From Patescibacteria group bacterium (GTDB lineage Bacteria > Patescibacteriota > Patescibacteriia > Magasanikbacterales > GWA2-37-8): DNA of 64,000 nucleotides. Position numbers and translations under genes: made by a program. The first letter of the stretch is position 1; each line of letters starts with the position of its first letter. The stretch lies in the NCBI GenBank assembly GCA_022710645.1, contig JAKLGL010000002.1, positions 78,337 to 142,336 of the forward strand. The letters run 5' to 3'. Under the pieces are notes generated by a model. The model was not told the origin of the DNA. It ran no database searches and saw only the letters and a program-made list of their open reading frames with translations. Below, piece by piece: positions 3,212-47,577 of the stretch.

Positions 3212-3270
3212 AATTGAAAAGATTTAAGAGATTTAAAAGATTGCAAGATTTTTGAATAACAAGACTGTTT

Positions 3271-3344
3271 TGTCATTCCTGCGAAAGCAGGAATCCAGGA
3301 TTTTAAACGACTGCCGCTGGATCCCTGCTTTCGCAGGGATGACA
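3271..3344. repeat. Imperfect inverted repeat with 26-bp arms, each arm itself a small hairpin (cctgc-gaaa-gcagg). Arms are separated by 22 nt.
   Basis: tgtcattcctgcgaaagcaggaatcc ... ggatccctgctttcgcagggatgaca. Translated it gives the SFLRKQESRI / PAFAGMT junk peptide typical of a widespread palindromic repeat family. It sits in the dnaE upstream region. Confidence 0.6.
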
Positions 3345-3455
3345 GTTGAATTATATTGTAAAAAAATAAACCAAAAAGACCCTCCCTTTGGCTACTCCAT
3401 AATATCTCAAAAAACCGTCTTTGGCAACCTCCAAAAAATCTAGATTTTAAAATAA

Positions 3456-3499: not shown

Positions 3500-4073
3500 T
3501 TAAAATGTTTCTTTACGAACAGCTAAAAACTTAGTTGCAGTAGATTCAGGCCAAGGATAATCAAATAGATAATTATCTAAATGATATCCAGATTTAGATA
3601 AATAATAACTAACAGGAACACAGGGGTGCTTATAACAATTAATAACGGACCCAAGAGCAACTACCATAAACTCCTTTTTTTTTGATTTCAGGATAAGTCC
3701 TGATAAAAACCTTGAATTCATGAAATGTTGCTGGACGAAGTCTGTTTTCTTCCATATGAGAAAGCACATCTTCTGTTGTAGGACGCCCTTCAAAAGGATT
3801 AAAAAGCTCTAAATCAAGATTAAATACACCATGTTCAATAACAGCAGGGAAATTACATTCTTTGTGAACAACATCAAAAACCACTTCTTCATTTTTTTCT
3901 TCATCATAATCAATAGAAATTGGATATTTTTTTGCAGAGATTAATTTATCTTCACAAAAATCTATCACTTTTTTCCTGTTTTTTGGATCAAATAAAGCAC
4001 GAGAATTTCTGTGTCCGAGTGCTTTCAAAAAAATCACCATCTCCTCAAAAAATCGTAACATTGTTTTCTCCAA
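3500..4073 (-). pseudogene. Paralog A of a three-member small-protein family. It is split into two overlapping frames (4073..3639 and 3793..3500) at an A9 homopolymer near 3664-3672. It may be a frameshifted pseudogene or a phase-variable gene.
   Basis: The N-terminus (FLKALGHRN..KKVIDFCEDKL) aligns with paralogs B and C (FIKAVGREN..KVKEFCKTL). Deleting one A from AAAAAAAAA fuses ...PEIKKK to EFMVVALGSV...AVRKETF. The upstream promoter and leader match copy C. Confidence 0.55.
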
Positions 4074-4078
4074 ATCTT

Positions 4079-4200
4079 TTCATTGTATTAATAATAAAAG
4101 GAACATATTTGTTGATTGCTTATCGTATAATATTTTAATGTTTTTGTCAACCCCGCTTAGCGGGGTTACAGTCACGCTCAGCGTGACAATATAATAATTG
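4079..4200 (-). promoter_or_regulatory. Duplicated upstream cassette (copy A). On the minus strand it reads hairpin gtcacgc-tga-gcgtgac, then hairpin ccccgc-tta-gcgggg, then -35 TTGACA, 17 nt, -10 TACGAT, then a conserved leader ending ATGGAGAAAACAATG.
   Basis: About 90% identical over roughly 115 nt to 6662-6775. The -35 is at 4145-4150 and the -10 at 4122-4127 (plus-strand coordinates). Confidence 0.5.
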
Positions 4201-4234
4201 ATCTAATTGATATTATCTTAACTTTTACAAGAAA

Positions 4235-4800
4235 TGAAAACCACCAGCTAACGCTGGTGGTTTCTTTCTTGCCGGCCGTTAGGCCGGCAGAGGCAACTTC
4301 GGTAGCTCTGGTCTGCGGGTTTGTTGATTATTGATATAGTTTTTAAGTTGGTATTCGTTAATACCGACGGTAGAGACAAAATAACCCCTTGACCAGAGCG
4401 AGCCCAACGGTAATTTATTGGGCGCCTTCTTTTTTAACCAATTACTACTTTTACCTTTGAATATTTGAACTACATAGGAAACGGAAAACTTAGGCGGAAT
4501 TATTATATAAAGATGAATATGTTCATCTCCGACATGCCAAGCTAACAATTTAATATCTTTCCATTTGGCTATCACCTTGAAAATTCTTTTTAATTCTTGT
4601 TTAATATACTTATCAACCAATACTTTACCGCGATATTTGGTAATCCAAACTAAGTGATATTGGCAAAGGTAAGTACAATGTTCCAGATTGTACAACCTAT
4701 ATGGTGCGGATGGAATAAAAATCACCTCCTTTCTGCTAAGCGGGGTGATTTTATTTTACCATGAGCTACGCTCCAAAAGGACACGCCGGCTAAAGCCGGC
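4235..4800 (-). mobile_element. IS200/IS605-family element carrying tnpA only. Boundaries are approximate.
   Basis: TnpA ORF flanked by subterminal hairpins: ccaccagc-taac-gctggtgg and gccggcc-gtta-ggccggc at 4243-4291, and cgccggc-taaa-gccggcg at 4775-4792. It is inserted between paralog cassettes A and B. Confidence 0.55.
4279..4725 (-). CDS. tnpA: IS200/IS605 family HUH/Y1 transposase TnpA (148 aa, GTG start).
   Basis: CQYHLVWITKYRGKVL ... DEHIHLYI (HuH) ... FKGKSSNWL ... LWSRGYFVSTVG (catalytic Tyr) ... NYINNQQ. This is a close pattern match to IS608-type TnpA. Confidence 0.8.
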   Translation of the reverse strand: MIFIPSAPYRLYNLEHCTYLCQYHLVWITKYRGKVLVDKYIKQELKRIFKVIAKWKDIKLLAWHVGDEHIHLYIIIPPKFSVSYVVQIFKGKSSNWLKKKAPNKLPLGSLWSRGYFVSTVGINEYQLKNYINNQQTRRPELPKLPLPA

Positions 4801-4804
4801 GGTT

Positions 4805-4835
4805 TTCGATTAATAAAAACCCGCACGTTGTGTGC
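4805..4835 (-). terminator. Rho-independent terminator downstream of paralog B.
   Basis: aaaaacccgcacgttgtgtgcggg has a 7-bp stem with a T-run on the minus strand. It is a near copy of the 3456-3486 terminator. Confidence 0.5.
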
Positions 4836-4853
4836 GGGATAACTTTGAGAATT

Positions 4854-5417
4854 TTAGGATTTGCGACGAAGGAGAAGAGCATTTTTTTTAAAAAAAAGAT
4901 CTCCATCCTTAAAATTATCACTTCCCCAACAATTTTCCTCCAGTAACTTAGATTCTTTGTCCCAAGTCAAATAATATTGATGGAAAGTATTTCCTATTCT
5001 TGGATTTAGATAATTGATGTTTTTTTCATCAACACCATCAACAAAAATCAAACAGTACTTCATAAAAATTTCTGGGAGACATTCTTTAAGCTCTAAAACA
5101 TAATCAATATCTTCAACCTCAACAACAGCGTTCAGTTCTTTTGCTCGTCTAATTACTTCATGGCCACTGATAGCATCCTCATCTTCTTTTAAAAAGGTTA
5201 TAATTTCATAAATCCGTCGACCAATTTTCATCTCTGTTGGTAATAAATTATGACCATTAGGTTTAATAGGGGCGAGAGTTTTACAAAAATCCTTCACTGC
5301 TCGACCGTTGTTTTTATCAACTAACCTTTCTGCATCTTCTTGTCCAAGATAATTAAGAAGATTGAGCAAATCTTTAACAGAAATTTTAACATGCAATCTT
5401 TCCATTTTAATCTCCAT
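4854..5417 (-). CDS. Paralog B of the small-protein family (187 aa). The likely true start is the second Met (MERLHVK...), using the GGAG inside ATGGAG as its SD.
   Basis: It shares FCKTL..LPTE.K.G.R.YE...FLK.DE..ISG and a C-terminal YY..W...LLLRRKS with paralogs A and C. It has its own consensus promoter. Confidence 0.6.
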   Translation of the reverse strand: MEIKMERLHVKISVKDLLNLLNYLGQEDAERLVDKNNGRAVKDFCKTLAPIKPNGHNLLPTEMKIGRRIYEIITFLKEDEDAISGHEVIRRAKELNAVVEVEDIDYVLELKECLPEIFMKYCLIFVDGVDEKNINYLNPRIGNTFHQYYLTWDKESKLLEENCWGSDNFKDGDLFFKKNALLLRRKS

Positions 5418-5458
5418 ACAAAGTTTAAAAATAAAAGGAACAATTTTACTAACTGCAT

Positions 5459-5487
5459 ATTATAGCACATTTTAGCACCCTTGTCAA
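5459..5487 (-). promoter_or_regulatory. Perfect sigma70 consensus promoter for paralog B. Minus strand: TTGACA-agggtgctaaaatgtgc-TATAAT, with the palindrome acccttgacaagggt overlapping the -35.
   Basis: Plus-strand tgtcaa at 5482-5487 and attata at 5459-5464, with a 17-nt spacer. The spacer is 14/17 identical to the promoter at 61503-61531. Confidence 0.5.
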
Positions 5488-5588
5488 GGGTATAATTTGG
5501 CTAATTTAAGACATTTTACAAAACAAAAACCCGCCATTTTCAGACGAATTTTTTATAATTTCGTAATTTTTCGTAAGTTCGTACGTAT

Positions 5589-5975
5589 TTATTTTTTCAT
5601 TTTCTTCGCCACTTTCTTAACCTTCTTCTGCGCAACCTCCATAGCTCTATCAACCGCATCTTTGGCGATGTCGCCAAAATCATCAACTTTATCATCCATA
5701 AAATTTCTAGCTTTTTTGGTAATGAAATTTTTTACCATTCCTCCGGCTGTTTCTTTGGCCATACCGAGCAAAGAAGAAATTCCTTCTATTTTATCTTGGA
5801 TAGAATTTATCGTATCTGTGATTCTCTGCAAACGAAGACGAAATTCTTCTACAATTGTATTTACATTTTTCAAAATCATCGCGGCGTAATAAAAAGTGTA
5901 ACAAAGAAACGCCGTTAACCAAATAATACAAAACGAAATGACGATATATAAAATATCTTTTGAATTTTCCAACAT
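5589..5975 (-). CDS. Small membrane-anchored coiled-coil protein (128 aa), possibly DUF948-like.
   Basis: N-terminal TM helix ILYIVISFCIIWLTAFLCYTFYYAAMIL followed by a charged helical tail. A strong RBS (aaggagg) precedes the ATG. Confidence 0.5.
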   Translation of the reverse strand: MLENSKDILYIVISFCIIWLTAFLCYTFYYAAMILKNVNTIVEEFRLRLQRITDTINSIQDKIEGISSLLGMAKETAGGMVKNFITKKARNFMDDKVDDFGDIAKDAVDRAMEVAQKKVKKVAKKMKK

Positions 5976-6069
5976 ATTTCCTCCTTATTAAATTTTAATT
6001 ATATTTGAATTATAACATTTTTTAGAAAAACGAGCAAATAGTCATAAATAAACTTACGAAAGTATATAA

Positions 6070-6122
6070 AAAAAGAAAACCCTGTATATCATTTGCTAAA
6101 AGCATTTGATACACAGGGGTAT
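6070..6122 (-). terminator. Rho-independent terminator for paralog C (12-bp stem).
   Basis: Minus strand: ccctgtgtatca ... tgatatacaggg followed by ttttctttttttat. Confidence 0.5.
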
Positions 6123-6182
6123 GAATTTGCGAAGTGCCCAAGGAATCAAGAAACGATTCCAAGAATCCAAGGACCCAAGCGA

Positions 6183-6662
6183 CTACTTGCGACGGAGAAT
6201 CAGACCAGCGTCACGCTGGTAGTAGTCGTTATGAGAGACCCAGCCTCCGATCCAACGGTCATCGTCCCAGTAGACATAGCAGACGTCACCGGAACCGTCG
6301 GGACGGTGCCAATTTGTAAAGACAAAGTAAACTTTGCCTCTAAAATTTTCCGGAATATTCTGCTGGTGATCCAGCAAATATTGCCCGTCGTCCTCTCCGA
6401 GATGTGCCAACATCTCTTTTGCCTGCCTGACCATACCGTTCCCAGAAATTATTTCCTCGTCCCCTTTGAGGAATCCGAGAAGTTCGTAGGTACGATCACC
6501 TACTTTTATTTCAGTCGGCAGGTCTGAAGGAGAAATAAGAGTTTTGCAAAACTCTTTTACTTTTTCTATATTACTTTCCTTAAGTAATATAGTGAAATTT
6601 TCTCTCCCGACGGCTTTGATAAAATTACTGATTTTTTTTAAGAAATTCATTTCAATCTCCAT
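6183..6662 (-). CDS. Paralog C of the small-protein family (159 aa). The C-terminal variable half is GC-rich.
   Basis: MEIEMNFLKKISNFIKAVGREN..KVKEFCKTLISPSDLPTEIKVGDRTYELLGFLKGDEEIISG ... YVYWDDDRWIGGW...LILRRK. Its promoter cassette is the same as paralog A's. Confidence 0.6.
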   Translation of the reverse strand: MEIEMNFLKKISNFIKAVGRENFTILLKESNIEKVKEFCKTLISPSDLPTEIKVGDRTYELLGFLKGDEEIISGNGMVRQAKEMLAHLGEDDGQYLLDHQQNIPENFRGKVYFVFTNWHRPDGSGDVCYVYWDDDRWIGGWVSHNDYYQRDAGLILRRK

Positions 6663-6775
6663 TACAAATTTATAATAATAAAAGGAACTATTTTATTGAT
6701 TGCTTATCGTATAATATTTTAACTTTTTTGTCAACCCCGCTTAGCGGGGTTGTAGTCACGCTCAGCGTGACAAAA
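6662..6775 (-). promoter_or_regulatory. Duplicated upstream cassette (copy C): two GC hairpins, then TTGACA-17-TACGAT, then the conserved leader.
   Basis: tgtcaa at 6729-6734, ccccgcttagcgggg at 6735-6749, gtcacgctcagcgtgac at 6755-6771, and the -10 atcgta at 6706-6711. Confidence 0.5.
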
Positions 6776-11534: not shown

Positions 11535-11640
11535 AAAAATATTGAATATTAAATATTGAATATTAGTTAGGATTTTTAGTTTTCTCCAATATCCAATATT
11601 CAGTATTCAATCTACTTGTCAAAAAGACTAATTTTATATA
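11535..11640. repeat. AT-rich intergenic palindromic repeat built on aatattgaatatt / ccaatattcagtattcaat motifs.
   Basis: aaaatattgaatattaaatattgaatattagttaggattttt ... ccaatatccaatattcagtattcaat. Related to the repeats at 12247-12364 and 46674-46780. Confidence 0.4.
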
Positions 11641-12246: not shown

Positions 12247-12364
12247 GAATTAAAGCTCTAAGCTCTAATTCCTAATCTCTAAACAATATTAAAAACAAAA
12301 TTTCAAAATTAGATATTTGATATTCAAACATTGTTTAGGATTTAGGGTTTAGGATTTAGGATTT
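12247..12364. repeat. MITE-like element: roughly 35-bp terminal inverted repeats (ctctaagctctaattcctaatctctaaacaatatt / aatattgtttaggattt...) around an AT-rich core. It ends in a TTTAGGA/TTTAGGG tandem heptamer run (about 4 units, 12334-12364).
   Basis: Same architecture and about 80% similarity to 46674-46780. Confidence 0.5.
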
Positions 12365-12370
12365 TGTTTT

Positions 12371-33091: not shown

Positions 33092-34171
33092 GTGTTTCTC
33101 TTACTCCCCTTCTTCCCAAAAATCACCTATTCCCGCTTCAAAAAGGCGGTGAATTATTTTTTAAACCCCGAAGATATTTGGTCTGCCGAAATTAGTGATT
33201 TGATTACCGCCGGTTGGGAAGAAAATGTGGCTGAGGAATTCGTGACTTGGAAAGATAAACAAACAAAAGAAAAATTACAAGAAATTTTGGACAAAGAAAA
33301 TATCCGCGCGATTAAAATAGATGATGCGGAATATCCAACTTTACTCAAAGAAATAAAGGATCCTCCGTTTGTTTTATTTGTGCGCGGAAAAATTCCCTCT
33401 TTTATTCCGCGAAGTATAAGTGTAGTTGGTACACGCAAACATAGTATTTATGCCAAAATAGCCGTACAAACTATTGTCACTGATCTGGTAAAACGCGGTT
33501 TTGTGATAGTTTCCGGATTAGCTCTCGGAATTGATGCTTTGGCTCACGAATATGCTCTCAAGGCTGGCGGAAAAACCGTAGCTTTTTTGGGAAGTAGTGT
33601 AGTGCAAAAAGAAATTTATCCGGTAAACAACCAAAAATTAGCCGAAGAAATAGTCGCAAACGGCGGAGCGGTAATTTCCGAATATCCGCCCGGTTTTGAA
33701 CCCACACTTTACTCTTTTCCCATGCGAAACCGTCTTATCGCCGGTTCTACCCCCGGAACACTGGTTATTGAGGCCCCAAATGGCTCAGGATCGCTGATTA
33801 CAGCGGAAAACGCCAAAGAATACAGTAGAGTTGTAATGTGCCTCCCCCACCCTATAAACTCAGTTTTTGGCGCCGGAGGTAATTTATTATTGAAAAAAGA
33901 CGCCAAAATTGTACTAAAATCCGAGGATATTTTGGAAATTCTCAATTTGAATTTAGCGGTCAAAGAAGTCACAAAACAAACAGTGATGAATTTTAGCTCT
34001 GATGAAGAAAAAATTCTAAATACCTTGTCAACTGAGCCAAAAAACATTGATTTTATCATCCGTGAATCAGGCCTACCCGCTCCCCAAGTCAGCACTCTAA
34101 TGGTACTTTTGGAAATGAGAGGTATTATCAAAAACGCCGGGAATATGAATTTTTATAAAAATATCGTTTAA
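33092..34171 (+). CDS. dprA: DNA processing protein DprA (Smf), GTG start.
   Basis: Rossmann-like core SVVGTRKHSIYAKIA...VSGLALGIDALAHEYAL, 359 aa. Confidence 0.85.
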   Translation: MFLLLPFFPKITYSRFKKAVNYFLNPEDIWSAEISDLITAGWEENVAEEFVTWKDKQTKEKLQEILDKENIRAIKIDDAEYPTLLKEIKDPPFVLFVRGKIPSFIPRSISVVGTRKHSIYAKIAVQTIVTDLVKRGFVIVSGLALGIDALAHEYALKAGGKTVAFLGSSVVQKEIYPVNNQKLAEEIVANGGAVISEYPPGFEPTLYSFPMRNRLIAGSTPGTLVIEAPNGSGSLITAENAKEYSRVVMCLPHPINSVFGAGGNLLLKKDAKIVLKSEDILEILNLNLAVKEVTKQTVMNFSSDEEKILNTLSTEPKNIDFIIRESGLPAPQVSTLMVLLEMRGIIKNAGNMNFYKNIV

Positions 34172-34248
34172 TTTGTTTAAATTGACAAATTATTTTATTA
34201 CTTTTATAATAAAATTAGATCTTTATAAATTTTAATAAGGGGTTAGTC

Positions 34249-34419
34249 ATGTCAAAGCTTTCGGAAAAAGAACAAAAAAGAATAGACAAAATCAATCAGG
34301 TAGATGAAGAAGAATTAAGATTTGCTACTTCTGTAAGAGAGGTGCTTCCACCGCTGTGGGGAGAAAAAAAAGAAAAAAAAATTGAAGTTAGGGTTTATCC
34401 CATGGAACCTCCAAAATAG
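34249..34419 (+). CDS. Small ORF (56 aa) behind a perfect consensus promoter. It contains A8/A9 tracts.
   Basis: TTGACA (34182-34187), 17 nt, TATAAT (34205-34210). RBS aaggggttagtcATG. MSKLSEKEQKRIDKINQVDEEELRFATSVREVLPPLWGEKKEKKIEVRVYPMEPPK. Followed by a hairpin. Confidence 0.35.
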   Translation: MSKLSEKEQKRIDKINQVDEEELRFATSVREVLPPLWGEKKEKKIEVRVYPMEPPK

Positions 34420-34593
34420 CGTCCTTTATGGGCGCTTTTTTATTAAAAATTATTTATTTTGCAAAAATATTATCTAGAATTTGAAATAATTTTGAAAATA
34501 AAAAAATGACAGGGTTTATTCTGTCATTTTTTATTTATTTTAGAAGTATCAAAATATCAAAGAAACAAAATAAAAAAATAAGTTAACAAGTGA

Positions 34594-36510
34594 TTACACT
34601 TGCCTGCCCGCCTCTGGCGGGCGGAGAGAAAAGACAAACCCGTAGTAATCATACCACCTAAAGTCAGGCCTGGCATCGTTGCTGTCGAGCCAAAGAGCGT
34701 CGCCACTATTGCGCAGAGTGAACACGCGCGGGTGGCGGACGCTGTCGGCTATTTGTTTCATTCCAATTACAATATATTCTCTAGTTTGATTTTGCAATCT
34801 GAAATTTGGCCCCGTTTCCGGAGGACAAAGTTCTAAACCAAGTTCTTTAGCTTTGGCAAATATTTCATCCGTGGTTTGATTTTTAGTTTTGAGATCTGCT
34901 ACTTTTAAACGGATAAGGGTTTCATTTTGTTTGGTTTTTGAAGTAGTAAAATCAGGACTATTAAACACATCTTGCGCCCAGTCGGAGATTACGATATTTT
35001 GTTTTTTCATTTCTTCTTCTAATTCATCTTTGTTTTTTCCGCCAATTTCAATGTTATATCTTCGGATTTTACCTTCGGGAAATTCGGTGTAGATATGTTC
35101 GGTTTGAAGAACTTGGAAAATATTTGGGAACAGTTCACCAACGTAGGCCTTAGTATTTTCATTGATTTCTTTTTGGTTATGAGCAACTTGATTAGGTTCA
35201 TAATCAAAAATTATGAGTATATCTCTATCTTTGTTTCTGGTATCTCGTATTTCTTTGATACGAGGATCATCGTCATAACCAAAACCTTGAATAGGTCGGT
35301 CTATTTCATAAAGGAAAGTTAATTCGTCTTTGTTTAGTTCTTCGTTGTTTTTGGTTTTTTTATCAATTTGGGTGAGGAGTTTCATATCCGCGGATTTTTT
35401 GATATATTTTTCCGCTCCCGGCAGTTCGTTCATTTTCTTTTGCGCGATATCTACCATATTACCTTCAAGATTTTGGTCATTGTCAGATACTCCTCTTACT
35501 TCACCGATATCTTTTCCTTGCATTCTGATGGCTATGCGCGGAATGGTCGGCTTGCCTTGTTTGTCAAAAGTATAATAGACATAAAAATCACCGCCCTTGA
35601 GCTGGGTTTGCGCTGTGCCGAAACCTTTAGTGCACCAAGCTGTGCCTTTGTTTTGCAGGGACGCCCATAGAGCCGTCGGGTCTGTGTCTTTTTGATATTT
35701 TTTCCATTCACCTCTGGTTTCTTCTCGCATTTCCGGAGTAATTTCTCCAGATTGTTTTATCGCTTCGGTATATTGTTTGGCAAAAGAAAGTTTAGCGAAA
35801 TTTGCCACTTTTTCTTTGGTAATTAATTGATCTTCAGGAATATTTTCCAAAGCTGCTGATTTTTGGGCTTTTCTGAGTTTTTCAAGTATTTCCGGATTTT
35901 TATCAGCTTCGATCATTTGTTGCACATATGCTAAAGCTCCTCGATCAATATCAGGAAAAAGACGGACCGTTCCCGGAGATCGTTTAGTAAATTCTCCTTT
36001 ATCTTTGTCATAATCGCCCATATCAAGGATGTTGCGAAAGGCGTAATATCTAAACCAAGTCGGATAAGGCTCGTTGGCATCGGACAGATATGAAATCCAA
36101 CCATCCAAACTTTTTTCTACATCAGTAACAGCGATTTCTCCGCGCTCTGCAAGTTCTTCTTGTCCATATTGAGCTTCTATGCCCAAAGTTCTGGCGGCAC
36201 GTTCTTCAACTCTGGCCGCGTTTTCAGCCATTTTTTCTTTATGAGGACGGACATATTTATCCATTACCATTTCTCGGAGTAATGACAACGCCCGAGGACG
36301 AGATTCCGCATTAACTGTTTTTTTACTCTGCTTTTTATCAGGATCAAGGACTAAACCTTCTAGACGATCAAGGTAATTTTGAATCATGGATTCCGGATCA
36401 CCTTTTACCTTTTCGCCGGTTTGACTTTCAGTGCGTTTTTTGGCATTCAAAACTTCTTCACTGGTGTGAAGGTTGTATTTGTTTTTAAGGAAATTTGGGT
36501 TTTCGGACAT
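34594..36510 (-). CDS. Large orphan protein (638 aa) of unknown function, inserted between dprA and topA. The 3' end is GC-rich.
   Basis: Intact ORF, opposite strand to both neighbours, with a charged helical N-terminus. No motif I recognise. The last ~160 nt are GC-rich and end in the hairpin gcccgcc-tct-ggcgggc. Terminator at 34505-34540. Confidence 0.55.
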   Translation of the reverse strand: MSENPNFLKNKYNLHTSEEVLNAKKRTESQTGEKVKGDPESMIQNYLDRLEGLVLDPDKKQSKKTVNAESRPRALSLLREMVMDKYVRPHKEKMAENAARVEERAARTLGIEAQYGQEELAERGEIAVTDVEKSLDGWISYLSDANEPYPTWFRYYAFRNILDMGDYDKDKGEFTKRSPGTVRLFPDIDRGALAYVQQMIEADKNPEILEKLRKAQKSAALENIPEDQLITKEKVANFAKLSFAKQYTEAIKQSGEITPEMREETRGEWKKYQKDTDPTALWASLQNKGTAWCTKGFGTAQTQLKGGDFYVYYTFDKQGKPTIPRIAIRMQGKDIGEVRGVSDNDQNLEGNMVDIAQKKMNELPGAEKYIKKSADMKLLTQIDKKTKNNEELNKDELTFLYEIDRPIQGFGYDDDPRIKEIRDTRNKDRDILIIFDYEPNQVAHNQKEINENTKAYVGELFPNIFQVLQTEHIYTEFPEGKIRRYNIEIGGKNKDELEEEMKKQNIVISDWAQDVFNSPDFTTSKTKQNETLIRLKVADLKTKNQTTDEIFAKAKELGLELCPPETGPNFRLQNQTREYIVIGMKQIADSVRHPRVFTLRNSGDALWLDSNDARPDFRWYDYYGFVFSLRPPEAGRQV

Positions 36511-36639
36511 AGAAAAATGTTTAAAACTGCTTTGTTTATCTAATTATAGCATAAATTGATGATTTTGGCAATATACCACATTTTGATGATAAATTGACGA
36601 AAAAGGAACTATATAGTAGTATAGAGTTTAATAAATTTT

Positions 36640-38844
36640 ATGAAAACACTCGTAATCGTAGAATCTCCTACAAAAGCCAAGACTATTTCCAAATTTTTAG
36701 GACGAAATTTCACTATTAAGTCCTCTTTTGGTCATGTCCGAGATTTACCAAAAAGCAAGCTCAGTATTGATGTTGAACATGATTTTGTGCCAAAATATAT
36801 AGTTTCCAAAGATAAAACCAAGGTTGTCAAAGAACTAAAAGACGCGGCCAAAAAAGCAGATGAAATAATACTGGCAAGCGATGAGGACCGCGAAGGAGAA
36901 GCTATTGCCTGGCATTTGTCCGAAATTTTGGATTTGAAAAAGAAAGATCTCAAACGCATCACTTTCCACGAAATTACCAAACATGCTATTGAAGAAGCTC
37001 TCAAACATCCGCGCGAATTGGACATGAACTTGGTGGATGCGCAACAAGCTCGTCGTGTATTGGATAGACTTGTCGGTTATGAATTATCTCCGTTTTTATG
37101 GCGTAAAGTCGCCAAAGGATTATCTGCCGGACGCGTGCAATCTGTAGCTGTCCGCTTGATTGTAGAACGCGAACGTGAAATCAAAGATTTTAAAACCGAA
37201 GAATATTGGAGTTTGGACGGATTTTTTTCCAAAAACAAAAGTTCTTCTTTTGAAGCAAAATTGCATTCCATCGCTGACAAAAAATTGGACAAAATGGATT
37301 TGAAAAACGAAGAACAAGTAAATAAAATAATCGCTGATTTGGAAAATCAAAAATACACTATAAAAGATTTAGAGAAAAAACAAACCAAACGCAATCCTCT
37401 ACCTCCTTTTACCACTTCCACTCTGCAACAAGAAGCCAATAACGCTCTGGGTTTTTCCGCCAAACAAACTATGATGTTGGCGCAAAAACTTTACGAAGGC
37501 GTGGAGCTCGGAACCGAAGGACATGTCGGTCTCATCACTTATATGAGAACCGATGCGGTAAATTTATCGGAAAAATTTTTAAATGAAGCCCAAGATGTTA
37601 TCGCCAAAGAATATGGTGCAAAATACGGATTGAAAGAACCGAGATTTTATAAAAACAAAAATAAAAACGCGCAAGAAGCGCATGAAGCTATTCGTCCGAC
37701 AGATGTTTTCCGCACACCAAAATCAGTAGAACCGTATTTGGACAGAAATCAATTTCGACTTTATGATTTGATTTGGCGTCGAGCCGTAGCCACCCAAATG
37801 GCGGAAGCGGAAATGAATTCCGTAAGCATGGATGTAGTATCTGAAAACAATTATTTATTCCGCGCTACCGGTCAAACTATTATTTTTGACGGTTTCTTGA
37901 AATTATTTCCGGAAAAATCCAAAGAAAACGCTTTGCCGGAACTCACTACCGGAGATAAGGTTGATTGTGATGAATTAAAACCTGAACAACATTTCACCGA
38001 ACCGCCGGCCCGATATAGCGATGCTACATTGGTCAAAGCCATGGAAGAATTCGGTATCGGCCGTCCGAGTACTTATGCTCCGACTATCGCCACGATTGAA
38101 AGTCGCGGATATGTTGATCGTGATGAAAAAAAACGTCTCGCTCCAACCGATATTGCCTTTTTGGTAAATGATGTTTTGGTAGAACATTTCGCGCAAATCG
38201 TGGATTATAAATTTACCGCGGAAATGGAAGAATCTCTTGATGAAATCGCGGAAGGAAAAAAACAATGGCCTCCGGTGATTCGCGCTTTTTATACACCTTT
38301 CAAAGAAAATTTGGTTGCCAAAGACAAAGAATTGGTAAAAAAAGATATTGTGGAAATGGAAACAAATGAAGTTTGTGAAAAATGCGGAAAACCAATGGTT
38401 ATCAAAACTTCTCGTTATGGAAAATTTCTCGCTTGTACCGGTTATCCGGAATGTAAAAATACCAAAAATATCAATCGTGACGGTAAAGTGGAAGAAAAAG
38501 CTCCGGAAGAAATAACCGGTGAAAAATGTGAAAAATGCGGTGGCGATATGATCAAGAAGGTCGGGCGTTTTGGTCCTTTTATGGCCTGTGCCAACTATCC
38601 AAAATGTAAAAATATCAAAAATATCGATGTAAAAATAGATATGAAATGCCCGAAATGCAATATTGGCGATATTGTTCAGAAAAAAAGTAAACGCGGAAAA
38701 ATATTTTTCGGATGCAGTAAATATCCGGATTGTGATTTTGCGCTTTGGGATAAACCGACCGGTAAATTTTGCGAAAAGTGTAAATCTCCGATGGTAACTG
38801 ATAGAAAAGGCGTGGAAAAATGCAGTAATAAAGAATGCGAATAA
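36640..38844 (+). CDS. topA: DNA topoisomerase I with C-terminal zinc ribbons.
   Basis: Toprim N-terminus MKTLVIVESPTKAK, a catalytic Tyr region, and repeated CxxC..CxxC (CEKCGKPM..., CPKCN...). Two hairpins downstream at 38851-38912. Confidence 0.9.
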   Translation: MKTLVIVESPTKAKTISKFLGRNFTIKSSFGHVRDLPKSKLSIDVEHDFVPKYIVSKDKTKVVKELKDAAKKADEIILASDEDREGEAIAWHLSEILDLKKKDLKRITFHEITKHAIEEALKHPRELDMNLVDAQQARRVLDRLVGYELSPFLWRKVAKGLSAGRVQSVAVRLIVEREREIKDFKTEEYWSLDGFFSKNKSSSFEAKLHSIADKKLDKMDLKNEEQVNKIIADLENQKYTIKDLEKKQTKRNPLPPFTTSTLQQEANNALGFSAKQTMMLAQKLYEGVELGTEGHVGLITYMRTDAVNLSEKFLNEAQDVIAKEYGAKYGLKEPRFYKNKNKNAQEAHEAIRPTDVFRTPKSVEPYLDRNQFRLYDLIWRRAVATQMAEAEMNSVSMDVVSENNYLFRATGQTIIFDGFLKLFPEKSKENALPELTTGDKVDCDELKPEQHFTEPPARYSDATLVKAMEEFGIGRPSTYAPTIATIESRGYVDRDEKKRLAPTDIAFLVNDVLVEHFAQIVDYKFTAEMEESLDEIAEGKKQWPPVIRAFYTPFKENLVAKDKELVKKDIVEMETNEVCEKCGKPMVIKTSRYGKFLACTGYPECKNTKNINRDGKVEEKAPEEITGEKCEKCGGDMIKKVGRFGPFMACANYPKCKNIKNIDVKIDMKCPKCNIGDIVQKKSKRGKIFFGCSKYPDCDFALWDKPTGKFCEKCKSPMVTDRKGVEKCSNKECE

Positions 38845-46652: not shown

Positions 46653-46673
46653 AAATTTATAAAACTCTAAGTT

Positions 46674-46780
46674 CTAATTTCTAAACTCTAAACAATATTT
46701 AAATTCAAATATTTAATTACAAAATTTAAATATTGGATATTAGATATTAAATATTGTTTAGGATTTGGAGCTTAGAATTT
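46674..46780. repeat. MITE-like AT-rich element with terminal inverted repeats. It is the same family as 12247-12364.
   Basis: ctctaagttctaatttctaaactctaaacaatattt ... aaatattgtttaggatttggagcttagaattt. Confidence 0.5.
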
Positions 46781-46782
46781 CA

Positions 46783-47577
46783 TTAAACAACTTCTTTGTT
46801 TTCATCCGGTCTCCTTGTAATTACTTCACACCCTTTTTCTGTAACAACCACTGTGTGTTCATAATGAGCGCAAACCGAATCGTCTATGGTATCTATGGAA
46901 AAACCGTCCGAACCGTCTTTCACTCTCCAATCACCTAGAGAAACCATAGGCTCTATAGCCAAAACCATTCCCGGTTTCAATTTGAAATTTTCCATTTTTC
47001 TATCGTAATAATTAGGCACCATCGGATCTTCATGAACTTTATGCCCGACTCCGTGCCCTACTAATTCTCTGATTATACCGTATTTTCCCTGACTGTTTAC
47101 ATACTTTTCAATAGCCTTACCTATATCCGCCACACTATTCCCCGGTTTAACCGCTTTTATTCCTTCTTCAAGAGATTGTTTTGTGACACGCATTAATTCT
47201 TTTATTTTTGGATTAACTTTTCCTATACATAGAGTAATCGCCGTATCGGTAAACAATCCGTCTTTTTCCATGCCGATATCAACGGTAAAAATATCTCCAT
47301 CTTTCAAAATGACTTTTTTTGAAGCTATAGCGTGAACTATTTGTTCATTTACACAAGCGCAAATAGTAGACGGAAAAGGAATGTCTCTGGGGTCGCTTTG
47401 ATAATTTTTAAACGCCGGTTTACCGCCTGCTTTTTTTATCATTTCTTCGGCTTTTTTATCTATTTCCAAAGTATTTTCTCCAACAATGCAAAATTGGCTC
47501 AAATCAGCTAAAATTTGGCCTAAAATTTTACCTCCTTTTTGTAATTTTTGTATCTCTTCTTTGCTTTTTATAAGCAT
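46783..47577 (-). CDS. map: Methionine aminopeptidase type I.
   Basis: Metal ligands D..D..H..E..E in the pita-bread fold, 264 aa. Confidence 0.9.
   Translation of the reverse strand: MLIKSKEEIQKLQKGGKILGQILADLSQFCIVGENTLEIDKKAEEMIKKAGGKPAFKNYQSDPRDIPFPSTICACVNEQIVHAIASKKVILKDGDIFTVDIGMEKDGLFTDTAITLCIGKVNPKIKELMRVTKQSLEEGIKAVKPGNSVADIGKAIEKYVNSQGKYGIIRELVGHGVGHKVHEDPMVPNYYDRKMENFKLKPGMVLAIEPMVSLGDWRVKDGSDGFSIDTIDDSVCAHYEHTVVVTEKGCEVITRRPDENKEVV

What the first reader, a model, noticed from the sequence alone, without database searches (positions are those of the whole stretch)
34172..36639. A 638-aa orphan protein and a small ORF are inserted on the opposite strand between dprA and topA
In the conserved dprA-topA pairing the two genes lie close together on the same strand. 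Here 2.4 kb intervenes, carrying two additions. The first is a 56-aa ORF behind a textbook TTGACA-17-TATAAT promoter. The second is a 638-aa ORF on the opposite strand with no motif I can assign, whose last ~160 nt (34600-34760) are GC-rich and end in the GC hairpin gcccgcc-tct-ggcgggc. That composition shift inside an otherwise AT-rich genome suggests foreign origin. A large, strongly delimited orphan protein inserted into a conserved neighbourhood is a candidate for a novel function such as defence, toxin or host interaction.
Basis: partly seen in the sequence, partly recalled or inferred. Interest (0 to 1): 0.7.

Follow-up and report, generated by a model that had tools for sequence, protein, structure and literature searches.

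The report
Hypervariable-tip protein lacking its retroelement
The "orphan" 638-aa gene belongs to a very large, highly conserved protein family of ultra-small (CPR/Patescibacteria) bacteria, and its odd GC-rich tail is a binding tip that a mutagenic reverse-transcriptase element rewrites in relatives, although no such element lies near it here.

Summary
The ORFs, the TTGACA-17-TATAAT promoter, the GC-rich 3' end and the GC hairpin are all real. The protein is not an orphan. It has more than 3,700 homologue clusters across Patescibacteria, many 60-67% identical over the full length, and none has a Pfam domain.

In 14 of 35 informative related loci the gene is followed directly by a template repeat (TR), a bAvd gene and a reverse transcriptase. 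TR and the gene's 3' end differ almost only at TR adenines. That is a classic diversity-generating retroelement (DGR), and the family is its variable protein.

The window's GC-rich stretch (57.8% GC against 37% for the window) is the homologous variable region (VR). It is not foreign DNA: the rest of the gene is 38% GC, and two close relatives (84% identity) carry it beside dprA, one between dprA and topA as here.

No TR, RT or Avd lies within about 72 kb. However, the VRs of cassette-less relatives differ at TR-adenine sites in an NNY codon pattern (p=4.5e-7).

So this is either a remote DGR target or a recent relic. The N-terminal module contains a GNAT-like subdomain, and the protein has no signal peptide. 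It is a new member of a known kind.

The parts
34594..36510 (-). 638-aa gene, a member of the Patescibacteria-wide family that serves as the DGR variable (target) protein
   Evidence: Homologues are 60-86% identical over the full length, in 3,745 clusters. 14 of 35 informative homologous loci carry TR + bAvd + RT directly downstream.
35161..36510 (-). Conserved N-terminal module (residues 1-450). It also occurs with other C-termini in longer relatives.
   Evidence: 30 columns are invariant across 98 diverse sequences. Representatives of 700-1131 aa match only residues 1-450. Substitutions follow a purifying-selection pattern of 0.09/0.03/0.35 per codon position. The AF2 model has pLDDT 84 and pTM 0.73.
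35311..35718 (-). Predicted GNAT-like alpha/beta subdomain (about residues 265-400). It carries the invariant residues W292, C293, P324, R325, E337, G340, Q346 and N347.
34621..35148 (-). C-terminal half (residues 455-630), a confidently modelled domain that carries the variable tip. Its fold is weakly C-type-lectin/FGE-like.
34621..34749 (-). Variable-region (VR) equivalent, codons 588-630.
   Evidence: It aligns with the VRs and TRs of DGR-bearing homologues. Composition is 57.8% GC and 22% A, against 38.5% A in the rest of the gene. 51% of residues differ from close relatives, against 11% in the rest of the protein. Variability is concentrated at TR-adenine sites (24/27 vs 27/80, p=4.5e-7) with an NNY codon pattern.
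34602..34620 (-). 19-nt insert CCGCCAGAGGCGGGCAGGC, containing the GC hairpin at 34606-34622. It splits the conserved VR 3' boundary ...CTCCGC | AAGT... and extends the ORF by 7 codons.
   Evidence: Compare L010, which reads ...ctccgcaagtga. The same or related inserts occur in L173, L174/L011, L013, L014, L029, L034 and L043, but in 0 of 14 DGR-adjacent loci (p=0.027). In L043 the TR-VR homology ends exactly at the insert.
36543..36571 (-). Promoter-like site of the 638-aa gene (TTGCCA-17-TATAAT with an upstream TG)
   Evidence: 11 of 12 positions match
34501..34532 (.). Bidirectional terminator-like hairpin between the convergent 56-aa ORF and the 638-aa gene
34182..34436 (+). Strain-specific small transcription unit: a perfect sigma-70 promoter, an AAGGGG ribosome-binding site, the 56-aa Lys/Glu-rich ORF (34249-34419) and a terminator (34418-34436). 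It is not part of the DGR story.
   Evidence: It is called as a gene in L005-L007. It is absent in L010 and L174. No family match was found, and no Avd similarity.

Best explanation
The 638-aa gene encodes a variable (target) protein of the Patescibacteria clade of diversity-generating retroelements (DGRs).

Architecture of the protein:
- It is soluble, with no signal peptide or transmembrane segment.
- Its very conserved N-terminal module of about 450 aa contains a GNAT-like alpha/beta subdomain with invariant Cys, Arg and Glu residues.
- A C-terminal domain follows whose last ~43 codons (34621-34749) are the variable region (VR).

How diversification works in relatives:
- A template repeat (TR) just downstream is transcribed.
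- It is reverse-transcribed by the adjacent RT, with bAvd, with misincorporation opposite adenines.
- The product is copied into the VR. AAY codons become NNY, which rewrites a ligand-binding surface while the scaffold stays fixed.

The GC-rich, A-poor composition of 34600-34760 is the signature of this VR, not of foreign DNA.

In this genome the gene sits alone between topA and dprA, with no TR, Avd or RT within about 72 kb. I judge it most likely a stand-alone ('remote') target that is, or recently was, rewritten in trans by a cassette elsewhere in the genome. The GC hairpin insert at the VR 3' boundary may act as the target-site structure.

What is shown and what is inferred:
- Shown: family membership, the DGR association of the family, and adenine-site-biased variation of the VR among cassette-less relatives.
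- Inferred: trans-activity in this genome, the role of the hairpin, and any enzymatic role of the GNAT-like module.

My confidence is about 0.95 for 'DGR variable-protein family member with a VR', and about 0.5 for 'still serviced in trans'.
For: Family size and conservation:
- Homologues are 60-86% identical over the full length in many CPR classes, in 3,745 clusters.

DGR association of the family:
- In L001/L020 the gene is followed by a TR, then bAvd on the minus strand and an RVT_1 gene on the plus strand. All core TR-VR mismatches fall at TR adenines.
- The same cassette is present in 14 of 35 loci with enough flank, and 4 more have a TR copy only.

Variable region in the window:
- The window's 3' end aligns to these VRs and TRs and is the GC maximum of the window.
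- Against relatives at 84% identity, the VR differs at 51% of residues, against 11% elsewhere. Changes per codon at codon positions 1/2/3 are 0.37/0.27/0.27 in the VR, against 0.09/0.03/0.35 elsewhere.
- Among four cassette-less Magasanikbacteria alleles, variable columns fall on TR-adenine sites (24/27 vs 27/80, Fisher p=4.5e-7).
- AAY-type codons vary at position 1 in 100% of cases, position 2 in 83% and position 3 in 33%.

Remote targeting occurs in this family:
- Two Komeilibacteria paralogues about 290 kb apart on one contig both match the single TR almost exclusively at non-A positions.

Hairpin insert:
- It occurs only in loci without an adjacent cassette (0/14 vs 6/19).
- It directly follows the end of TR-VR homology in L043.

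Protein features:
- There is no hydrophobic segment (maximum KD19 0.41).

Literature:
- CPR DGRs form their own clade, and their targets lack recognisable domains or TM segments (PMC8144416).
- The CPR architecture is target-TR-avd-RT, called 'B3' (PMC5758913).
Against: - No TR-like copy, RT or Avd was found in the 64-kb window or in 8 kb beyond its right end. None was found within 10 kb in relatives L010, L173 or L174.
- The rest of the genome could not be searched. My one metagenome scan was wasted on poly-A matches.
This is weak evidence, because more than 8,000 RTs exist.
- Cassette decay does happen in the family. L014 and L039 keep a TR but have unrelated genes where Avd and RT should be.
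- The segment downstream of the gene differs among the three Magasanikbacteria relatives (56-aa ORF, NYN gene, nothing). That pattern would also fit independent cassette loss.
- The hairpin insert interrupts the conserved ...CGC/AAGT boundary and could just as well have inactivated the target site.
- The four assemblies of this strain are 100% identical over 13-22 kb, so nothing is known about VR heterogeneity within the population.
Confidence: 0.6

Rival explanations
1. Fossil target. The lineage once had the full target-TR-Avd-RT cassette between topA and dprA and has lost TR, Avd and RT. The VR is now a frozen allele that evolves only by ordinary mutation and selection, and the hairpin insert is a later, possibly inactivating, insertion at the former homing site.
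For: - No cassette lies within about 72 kb or near the relatives' copies.
- Decaying cassettes exist in this family: L014 and L039 keep a TR but have lost RT and Avd, and L043 has only an Avd fragment.
- The DNA just downstream of the gene, where the cassette would sit, differs in each of three close relatives.
- The insert splits the conserved CGC/AAGT boundary.
Against: - Three species that share the cassette-less position next to dprA have VRs differing at 51% of residues, in an adenine-site, NNY-type pattern.
- That requires either DGR action after the cassette-less arrangement arose or three independent losses.
- Remote targeting is directly seen in the family.
Confidence: 0.35
2. One reading: a horizontally acquired orphan gene, such as a defence, toxin or host-interaction island, inserted into the dprA-topA pair and betrayed by foreign GC content.
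For: - In the 41 fetched loci from other CPR lineages neither dprA nor topA lies within 10 kb of the gene, so its position between them is specific to this lineage.
- No known domain was found.
- The GC-rich segment is real.
Against: - It is not an orphan.
- The gene body is 38.3% GC against 37.0% for the window, and only the 160-nt VR deviates.
- Relatives at 84% identity have it at the same position.
- Codons 1-450 are under strong purifying selection.
- There is no PADLOC or PHROGs hit.
Confidence: 0.03
3. An ordinary conserved cytoplasmic enzyme with a GNAT-like acyltransferase core. On this view its C-terminal variability reflects relaxed constraint or plain positive selection, and the GC hairpin is simply part of a transcription terminator.
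For: - GNAT-fold hits.
- Extreme conservation of the N-terminal module.
- No signal peptide.
- A hairpin lies near the stop codon, with a terminator 60 nt further on.
Against: - This does not explain the TR + Avd + RT cassettes next to 14 homologues, with adenine-only mismatches.
- It does not explain the NNY pattern with conserved third positions.
- The hairpin lies inside the ORF and has no T-run. The actual terminator-like site is at 34501-34532.
Confidence: 0.02

Closest known systems
Variable proteins of the CPR/Patescibacteria DGR clade (Roux et al. 2021 'clade 2', PMC8144416; 'CPR set', architecture B3, Wu et al. 2018, PMC5758913; Paul et al. 2017, cited there but not readable here)
   Same: - Same host group.
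- In homologues, the same cassette order of target-TR-avd(reverse)-RT, the same adenine-specific TR-VR mismatches and a C-terminal VR.
- No recognisable Pfam domain, signal peptide or TM segment, as those surveys report for CPR targets.
   Different: - This copy has no cassette within about 72 kb and carries a hairpin insert at the VR boundary.
- I could not check whether this exact protein family is one of the published VR clusters (UVR1-6 or the Roux protein clusters).
Bordetella phage BPP-1 Mtd, Treponema TvpA and Thermus TaqVP (C-type-lectin-fold DGR variable proteins), and the BPP-1 target site with its IMH plus a GC hairpin/cruciform downstream of the VR (Guo et al. 2011, from my own knowledge)
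   Same: - The VR forms the C-terminal ~45 codons.
- AAY-to-NNY diversification.
- A conserved 3' boundary that distinguishes VR (..CGCAAGT) from TR (..CGAAAGT).
- A short GC-rich hairpin with a 3-4-nt loop immediately 3' of the VR in a subset of loci, including this one.
   Different: - No sequence similarity.
- The protein is not a phage tail fibre or a lipoprotein.
- The hairpin is absent from DGR-adjacent family members (0 of 14), so it is not a general requirement here.
Remote (non-adjacent) DGR targets, e.g. Treponema denticola and 'Lineage 4' DGRs (PMC5758913)
   Same: - A target gene far from the RT/TR that still carries a TR-matching VR.
- This was directly seen for family members L029 and L043, about 290 kb apart.
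   Different: - Wu et al. found remote targets more than 100 kb away only in Lineage 4 DGRs and their neighbours on the RT tree, not in the CPR set.
- For the window itself, no cognate TR has been found.
GNAT-fold acyl-CoA N-acyltransferases, including the tRNA-acetylating toxins TacT and AtaT
   Different: - Identity is only 3-12%.
- There is no Pfam Acetyltransf hit in 50 diverse members.
- No recognisable Q/R-x-x-G-x-G/A motif.
- The strands after alpha-3 appear to be missing.
- The resemblance is in fold only, so this is not membership.

Membership tests
DGR variable (target) protein | Full-length homology to proteins that are demonstrable DGR targets | tested here: met
   The window protein is 58-74% identical to proteins in L012, L016, L018, L020, L023, L024, L028, L033, L036, L037, L040, L044, L047 and L048. 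Each of these is followed by TR + bAvd + RVT_1.
DGR variable (target) protein | A cognate template repeat whose differences from the VR are confined to TR adenines | tested here: inconclusive
   This is met in 18 homologous loci. For the window, no TR-like copy exists in 64 kb. The rest of the genome could not be searched, because the metagenome scan matched only poly-A.
DGR variable (target) protein | DGR-type reverse transcriptase and accessory Avd encoded nearby | tested here: not met
   tblastn with the L001 RT and Avd against the window gave nothing better than E=0.2. No RVT_1 or bAvd occurs in 8 kb beyond the right end or around the relatives' copies.
DGR variable (target) protein | Variation among alleles restricted to TR-adenine positions (AAY to NNY) on a fixed scaffold | tested here: met
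   24 of 27 strong A-sites are variable against 27 of 80 non-A sites, p=4.5e-7. AAY-type codons vary at positions 1/2/3 in 100%/83%/33% of cases. The VR differs at 51% of residues against 11% elsewhere.
DGR variable (target) protein | Conserved homing boundary (IMH-like) at the 3' end of the VR | tested here: inconclusive
   The family boundary ...CTCCGC-AAGT is present, with VR reading C where TR reads A. In the window it is split by the 19-nt hairpin insert at 34602-34620.
DGR variable (target) protein | VR displayed on a C-type-lectin (or Ig) fold | tested here: inconclusive
GNAT acyltransferase superfamily | GNAT fold (beta1-alpha1-alpha2-beta2-beta3-beta4-alpha3-beta5-alpha4-beta6) | tested here: inconclusive
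GNAT acyltransferase superfamily | Sequence signature: Pfam Acetyltransf_* match and the acetyl-CoA pyrophosphate-binding motif Q/R-x-x-G-x-G/A | tested here: not met
   No acetyltransferase family appeared at E<=0.1 in any of 50 diverse members or at E<=1 in the window protein. The beta4-alpha3 loop reads RGVSDNDQNLEG.
Known anti-phage defence systems | Match to a PADLOC defence-protein model | tested here: not met
   0 families at E<=1.
Horizontally acquired genomic island | Atypical composition of the whole gene and absence from the same site in relatives | tested here: not met
   The gene without its VR is 38.3% GC against 37.0% for the window. The same position between topA and dprA is seen in L010, and next to dprA in L174.

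The most novel reading that the evidence does not exclude
The family may be a cytoplasmic, CPR-wide 'programmable' enzyme. On this reading, a conserved GNAT-like catalytic module with invariant Cys, Arg and Glu residues has its substrate-recognition tip rewritten by a DGR, giving an intracellular adaptive effector directed at phage or host molecules. A sub-class marked by a GC hairpin inserted at the VR boundary, including this gene, would be serviced in trans from a distant cassette. That would extend remote targeting to CPR DGRs and assign the hairpin a role in target selection.
Probability: 0.15. Interest if true: 0.8.

Novelty: new member of a known kind. Interest (0 to 1): 0.45.

Why it matters
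- DGRs are unusually abundant in CPR bacteria, but published surveys state that their targets have no recognisable domains and that it is unresolved whether they are surface proteins at all (PMC8144416).
- This locus shows that one such target family is very large and extremely conserved: about 63% identity across classes, and no Pfam entry.
- The protein lacks any export signal and has a GNAT-like core. That makes an intracellular, possibly enzymatic, DGR-diversified protein a testable idea.
- About half of the family's genes stand without a cassette, so automated DGR finders will miss them and annotators will call them 'hypothetical' or 'orphan'.
- For genome scanning in practice, a sharp GC-rich, A-poor block of about 150 nt at the 3' end of a gene in an AT-rich genome is a usable signature of a DGR variable region, even when the retroelement itself is out of view.

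Tried and rejected
1. Pfam, NCBIfam, PADLOC, PHROGs and PDB-sequence searches of the protein found nothing significant. A profile search against PDB sequences and a scan of 50 diverse members against Pfam also found nothing. The weak DUF7366 hit (E=0.037) did not recur in other members. The 'PcfJ-like' motif reported for some CPR targets (PMC5758913) was not found.
2. Searches for a TR, RT or Avd in the window were negative: the repeat finder, and low-stringency blastn and tblastn.
3. I scanned the metagenome collection for a remote TR with a pattern in which every VR base was allowed to be itself or A. This was a design error, because poly-A runs satisfy the pattern. On known loci the same pattern recovers the TR in 15 of 18 cases, so the idea is sound if non-A anchor bases are required.
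4. I looked for this genome's RT among the homologues of the closest available DGR RT (L048). More than 8,000 hits exist, and none of the top 120 is on a contig of matching length or name. The result is inconclusive.
5. Extending the view beyond the window ends mostly failed. Three look-ups failed because the ORF starts did not match the called genes. One succeeded and showed only translation genes.
6. I tested the hairpin as a general DGR target-site element. This is rejected as a general feature, because only 1 of 14 DGR-adjacent loci has a comparable hairpin near the VR. It is retained only as a feature of the cassette-less or remote sub-class.
7. An Rfam search of 33900-36800 found nothing near significance.
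8. Comparing VRs across assemblies of the same strain was uninformative. All are 100% identical over 13-22 kb, so they represent the same clone.
9. Paul et al. 2017, the primary CPR DGR survey, could not be read.
Full report
**1. Observation**

- dprA at 33092-34171 (+)
- a 56-aa ORF at 34249-34419 (+)
- a 638-aa ORF at 34594-36510 (-)
- topA at 36640-38844 (+)

The small ORF sits behind a perfect TTGACA-17-TATAAT promoter (34182-34210) and ahead of a terminator-like hairpin. The large gene has its own TTGCCA-17-TATAAT promoter (36571-36543, minus strand). It ends 60 nt before a bidirectional terminator at 34501-34532.

The hairpin gcccgcc-tct-ggcgggc is at 34606-34622, inside the last codons of the ORF.

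Positions 34600-34760 are 57.8% GC. The window mean is 37.0% (sd 5.9), and no other 161-nt stretch in the 64 kb is richer. The remainder of the gene is 38.3% GC, which is ordinary for this genome. The shift is therefore real and highly non-random, but it covers only about 160 nt.

**2. Not an orphan**

Pfam, NCBIfam, PADLOC, PHROGs and PDB sequences gave nothing significant.

A homologue search returned more than 2,452 proteins. The top 120 all match nearly the whole query, most over 98-100% of its length, at 60-86% identity. They come from Magasanik-, Lipton-, Giovannoni-, Yanofsky- and Terrybacteria and from other Patescibacteria. An exhaustive search of cluster representatives found 3,745 clusters at E<=1e-3. 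A second search seeded from a 35%-identical member reached Microgenomates, Berkelbacteria and others.

The N-terminal ~450 residues are extraordinarily conserved. Thirty columns are invariant across 98 diverse sequences. This module also occurs with other C-termini in proteins of 700-1131 aa. None of 50 diverse members hits any Pfam family recurrently.

**3. What the family is**

The first genomic context I looked at belonged to a Yanofskybacteria homologue, locus L001 (the same region as L020). There the gene is followed by a 153-nt copy of its own 3' end, then a bAvd gene on the opposite strand, then an RVT_1 reverse transcriptase. Every core mismatch between the two copies lies at an adenine of the downstream copy. 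This is the defining signature of a diversity-generating retroelement: an invariant template repeat (TR) and an adenine-mutagenised variable region (VR).

A scan of species-representative genomes gave 43 homologous loci. Of the 35 with at least 1.9 kb of downstream sequence:
- 14 have the full TR + Avd + RT cassette.
- 4 more have a TR-like copy only. In two of these, L014 and L039, unrelated genes occupy the place of Avd and RT.
- 17 have nothing within 10 kb.

The order target-TR-avd(reverse)-RT is the 'B3' architecture reported for 90% of CPR DGRs (PMC5758913). Roux et al. noted that CPR DGR targets typically lack any recognisable domain or transmembrane segment (PMC8144416).

**4. The window's copy**

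The GC-rich stretch aligns codon for codon with these VRs and TRs. I place the VR equivalent at 34621-34749, codons 588-630. It is A-poor, at 22% A against 38.5% in the rest of the coding strand.

Comparison with the two nearest species (84-85% identity; L010, L011):
- Codons 1-450 show the pattern of purifying selection, with 0.09/0.03/0.35 differences per codon at positions 1/2/3.
- The VR shows 0.37/0.27/0.27, and 51% of its residues differ, against 11% elsewhere.

I then defined 'A-sites' from 15 TRs of related loci. Among four Magasanikbacteria-clade alleles, none of which has a cassette nearby, 24 of 27 strong A-sites vary against 27 of 80 non-A sites (Fisher p=4.5e-7). Codons that are AAY in the TRs vary at position 1 in 100% of cases, position 2 in 83% and position 3 in 33%. 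This NNY pattern is what DGR mutagenesis produces. Plain positive selection would not be expected to spare third positions in this way.

**5. Where is the retroelement?**

No TR-like copy, RT or Avd exists in the 64-kb window or in about 8 kb beyond its right end.

The nearest relatives have the gene in the same place, again without a cassette. L010 has it between topA and dprA, and L174 has it beside dprA. In the 41 loci from other CPR lineages, neither dprA nor topA is nearby. The position is therefore a trait of this clade, older than the species split, and not a recent insertion.

Two readings remain.

*(a) Remote target.*
- In a Komeilibacteria contig, two paralogues about 290 kb apart (L029, L043) both match the one TR next to L043, with essentially only adenine mismatches.
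- Trans-targeting therefore occurs in this family.

*(b) Relic.*
- L014 and L039 show that cassettes decay.
- The DNA immediately downstream of the gene, where a cassette would sit, differs in each of three close relatives: the 56-aa ORF here, a NYN-domain gene in L174, and nothing in L010.

I could not search the rest of the genome. My degenerate TR pattern for the single metagenome scan was satisfied by poly-A, and all 120 hits were poly-A. The RT family is too large (more than 8,000 hits) to pick out this genome's copy, if one exists. I put the two readings at about 0.5 and 0.35-0.4.

**6. The hairpin**

In most family members the gene ends ...CTC CGC AAG TGA. The VR and TR differ there by one base: VR reads CGCAAGT and TR reads CGAAAGT.

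In the window, 19 nt (CCGCCAGAGGCGGGCAGGC, 34602-34620) are inserted between CGC and AAGT. This creates the hairpin and adds 7 codons.

Related inserts of 19-35 nt, each hairpin-forming and ending in GGGCA(A/G)GC, occupy the same spot in L173, L174/L011, L013, L014, L029, L034 and L043. None occurs in the 14 DGR-adjacent loci, against 6 of 19 non-adjacent loci (p=0.027).

In L043, TR-VR homology stops exactly at the insert. This is the position of the target-site hairpin/cruciform of the Bordetella phage DGR, which I recall from my own knowledge and did not test.

A generic screen showed that comparable GC hairpins are rare next to DGR-adjacent VRs (1 of 14), so the hairpin is not a general requirement. 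Whether it marks trans-targets or is a disruptive insertion remains open.

**7. The protein**

No 19-residue window reaches a hydropathy above 0.41, so the protein has no signal peptide or membrane anchor.

With a shallow alignment, AlphaFold modelled residues 300-630 well. With 98 diverse sequences the N-terminal 455 residues reached pLDDT 84 and pTM 0.73.

- The same hits appear with the full-length model.
- From the order of secondary-structure elements, I infer that they map to residues ~265-400. That region holds the invariant W292, C293, P324, R325, E337, G340, Q346 and N347.

This is fold-level resemblance only. No Pfam acetyltransferase match or acetyl-CoA motif was found, and the strands after alpha-3 seem absent.

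**8. The 56-aa ORF**

It has textbook expression signals and is called as a gene in three assemblies of this strain. It is absent from the relatives' loci. It has no family match and no similarity to Avd. I treat it as a strain-specific small gene unrelated to the main finding. Its wider distribution was not searched.

**9. Verdict**

The gene belongs to a known kind: a variable protein of the CPR DGR clade.

It is interesting on four counts:
- The family is huge, Pfam-less and apparently cytoplasmic.
- It has a GNAT-like core.
- This copy stands alone in a housekeeping neighbourhood.
- It carries a hairpin-type VR boundary seen only in cassette-less copies.

I rate novelty as a new member of a known kind, and interest as moderate.

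Noticed in passing
L029 and L043 (both on Komeilibacteria contig JBLYPW010000001.1, about 290 kb apart): Two paralogues of the family lie in one genome. A single TR next to L043 matches both VRs with almost only adenine mismatches. This would be a remote (>100 kb) target in a CPR DGR, which Wu et al. 2018 did not find in their CPR set. L043 has only an Avd fragment downstream. It also has an RVT_1 ORF (3903-5126) 5 kb upstream that is only 24% identical to the canonical RT.
   Followed up: partly
L014 12293-12427 and L039 12283-12412: TR copies persist downstream of the target gene, but the Avd/RT positions are occupied by unrelated genes: AbiEii-like and SpoU genes in L014, and ABC ATPase and NHL-repeat genes in L039. 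These look like decaying DGR cassettes.
   Followed up: partly
3' flanks of most family loci, e.g. L032 5000-5090, L018 11320-11380, L024 11963-12030; weaker in window 34540-34593: The DNA just after the stop codon is built from degenerate units of about 9-10 nt, (N)CTTTGA or GAAACTTAG. This holds in loci both with and without a DGR. The function is unknown.
   Followed up: no
window 3951-6773: Three direct-repeat copies are spaced about 1.3 kb apart, and 4089-4189 is 92% identical to 6673-6773. This is probably a tandem array of paralogous genes with conserved upstream regions.
   Followed up: no
window 3248-3367: A long inverted repeat with 51-nt arms that are 75% complementary and 18 nt apart (GTCATTCCTGCGAAAGCAGGAATCC...).
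   Followed up: no
window 46656-46786, 11537-11582 and 12322-12365: An inverted repeat with 61-nt arms, made of AAATATTGAATATTA-like units, with related copies at two other places in the window. This is a dispersed AT-rich repeat family.
   Followed up: no
window 34420-34593 compared with L010 11897-11992 and L174 1806-2744: The spacer between the target gene and dprA is the only variable part of an otherwise collinear neighbourhood. It holds the 56-aa ORF here, nothing in L010 and a NYN-domain gene in L174. This is the position where a DGR cassette sits in other family members.
   Followed up: partly
(contig-length columns): Several target homologues and RT homologues share identical longest-contig lengths (549,591; 213,618; 26,187 bp). 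They probably lie on the same contigs, so these records could be used to measure target-RT distances.
   Followed up: no
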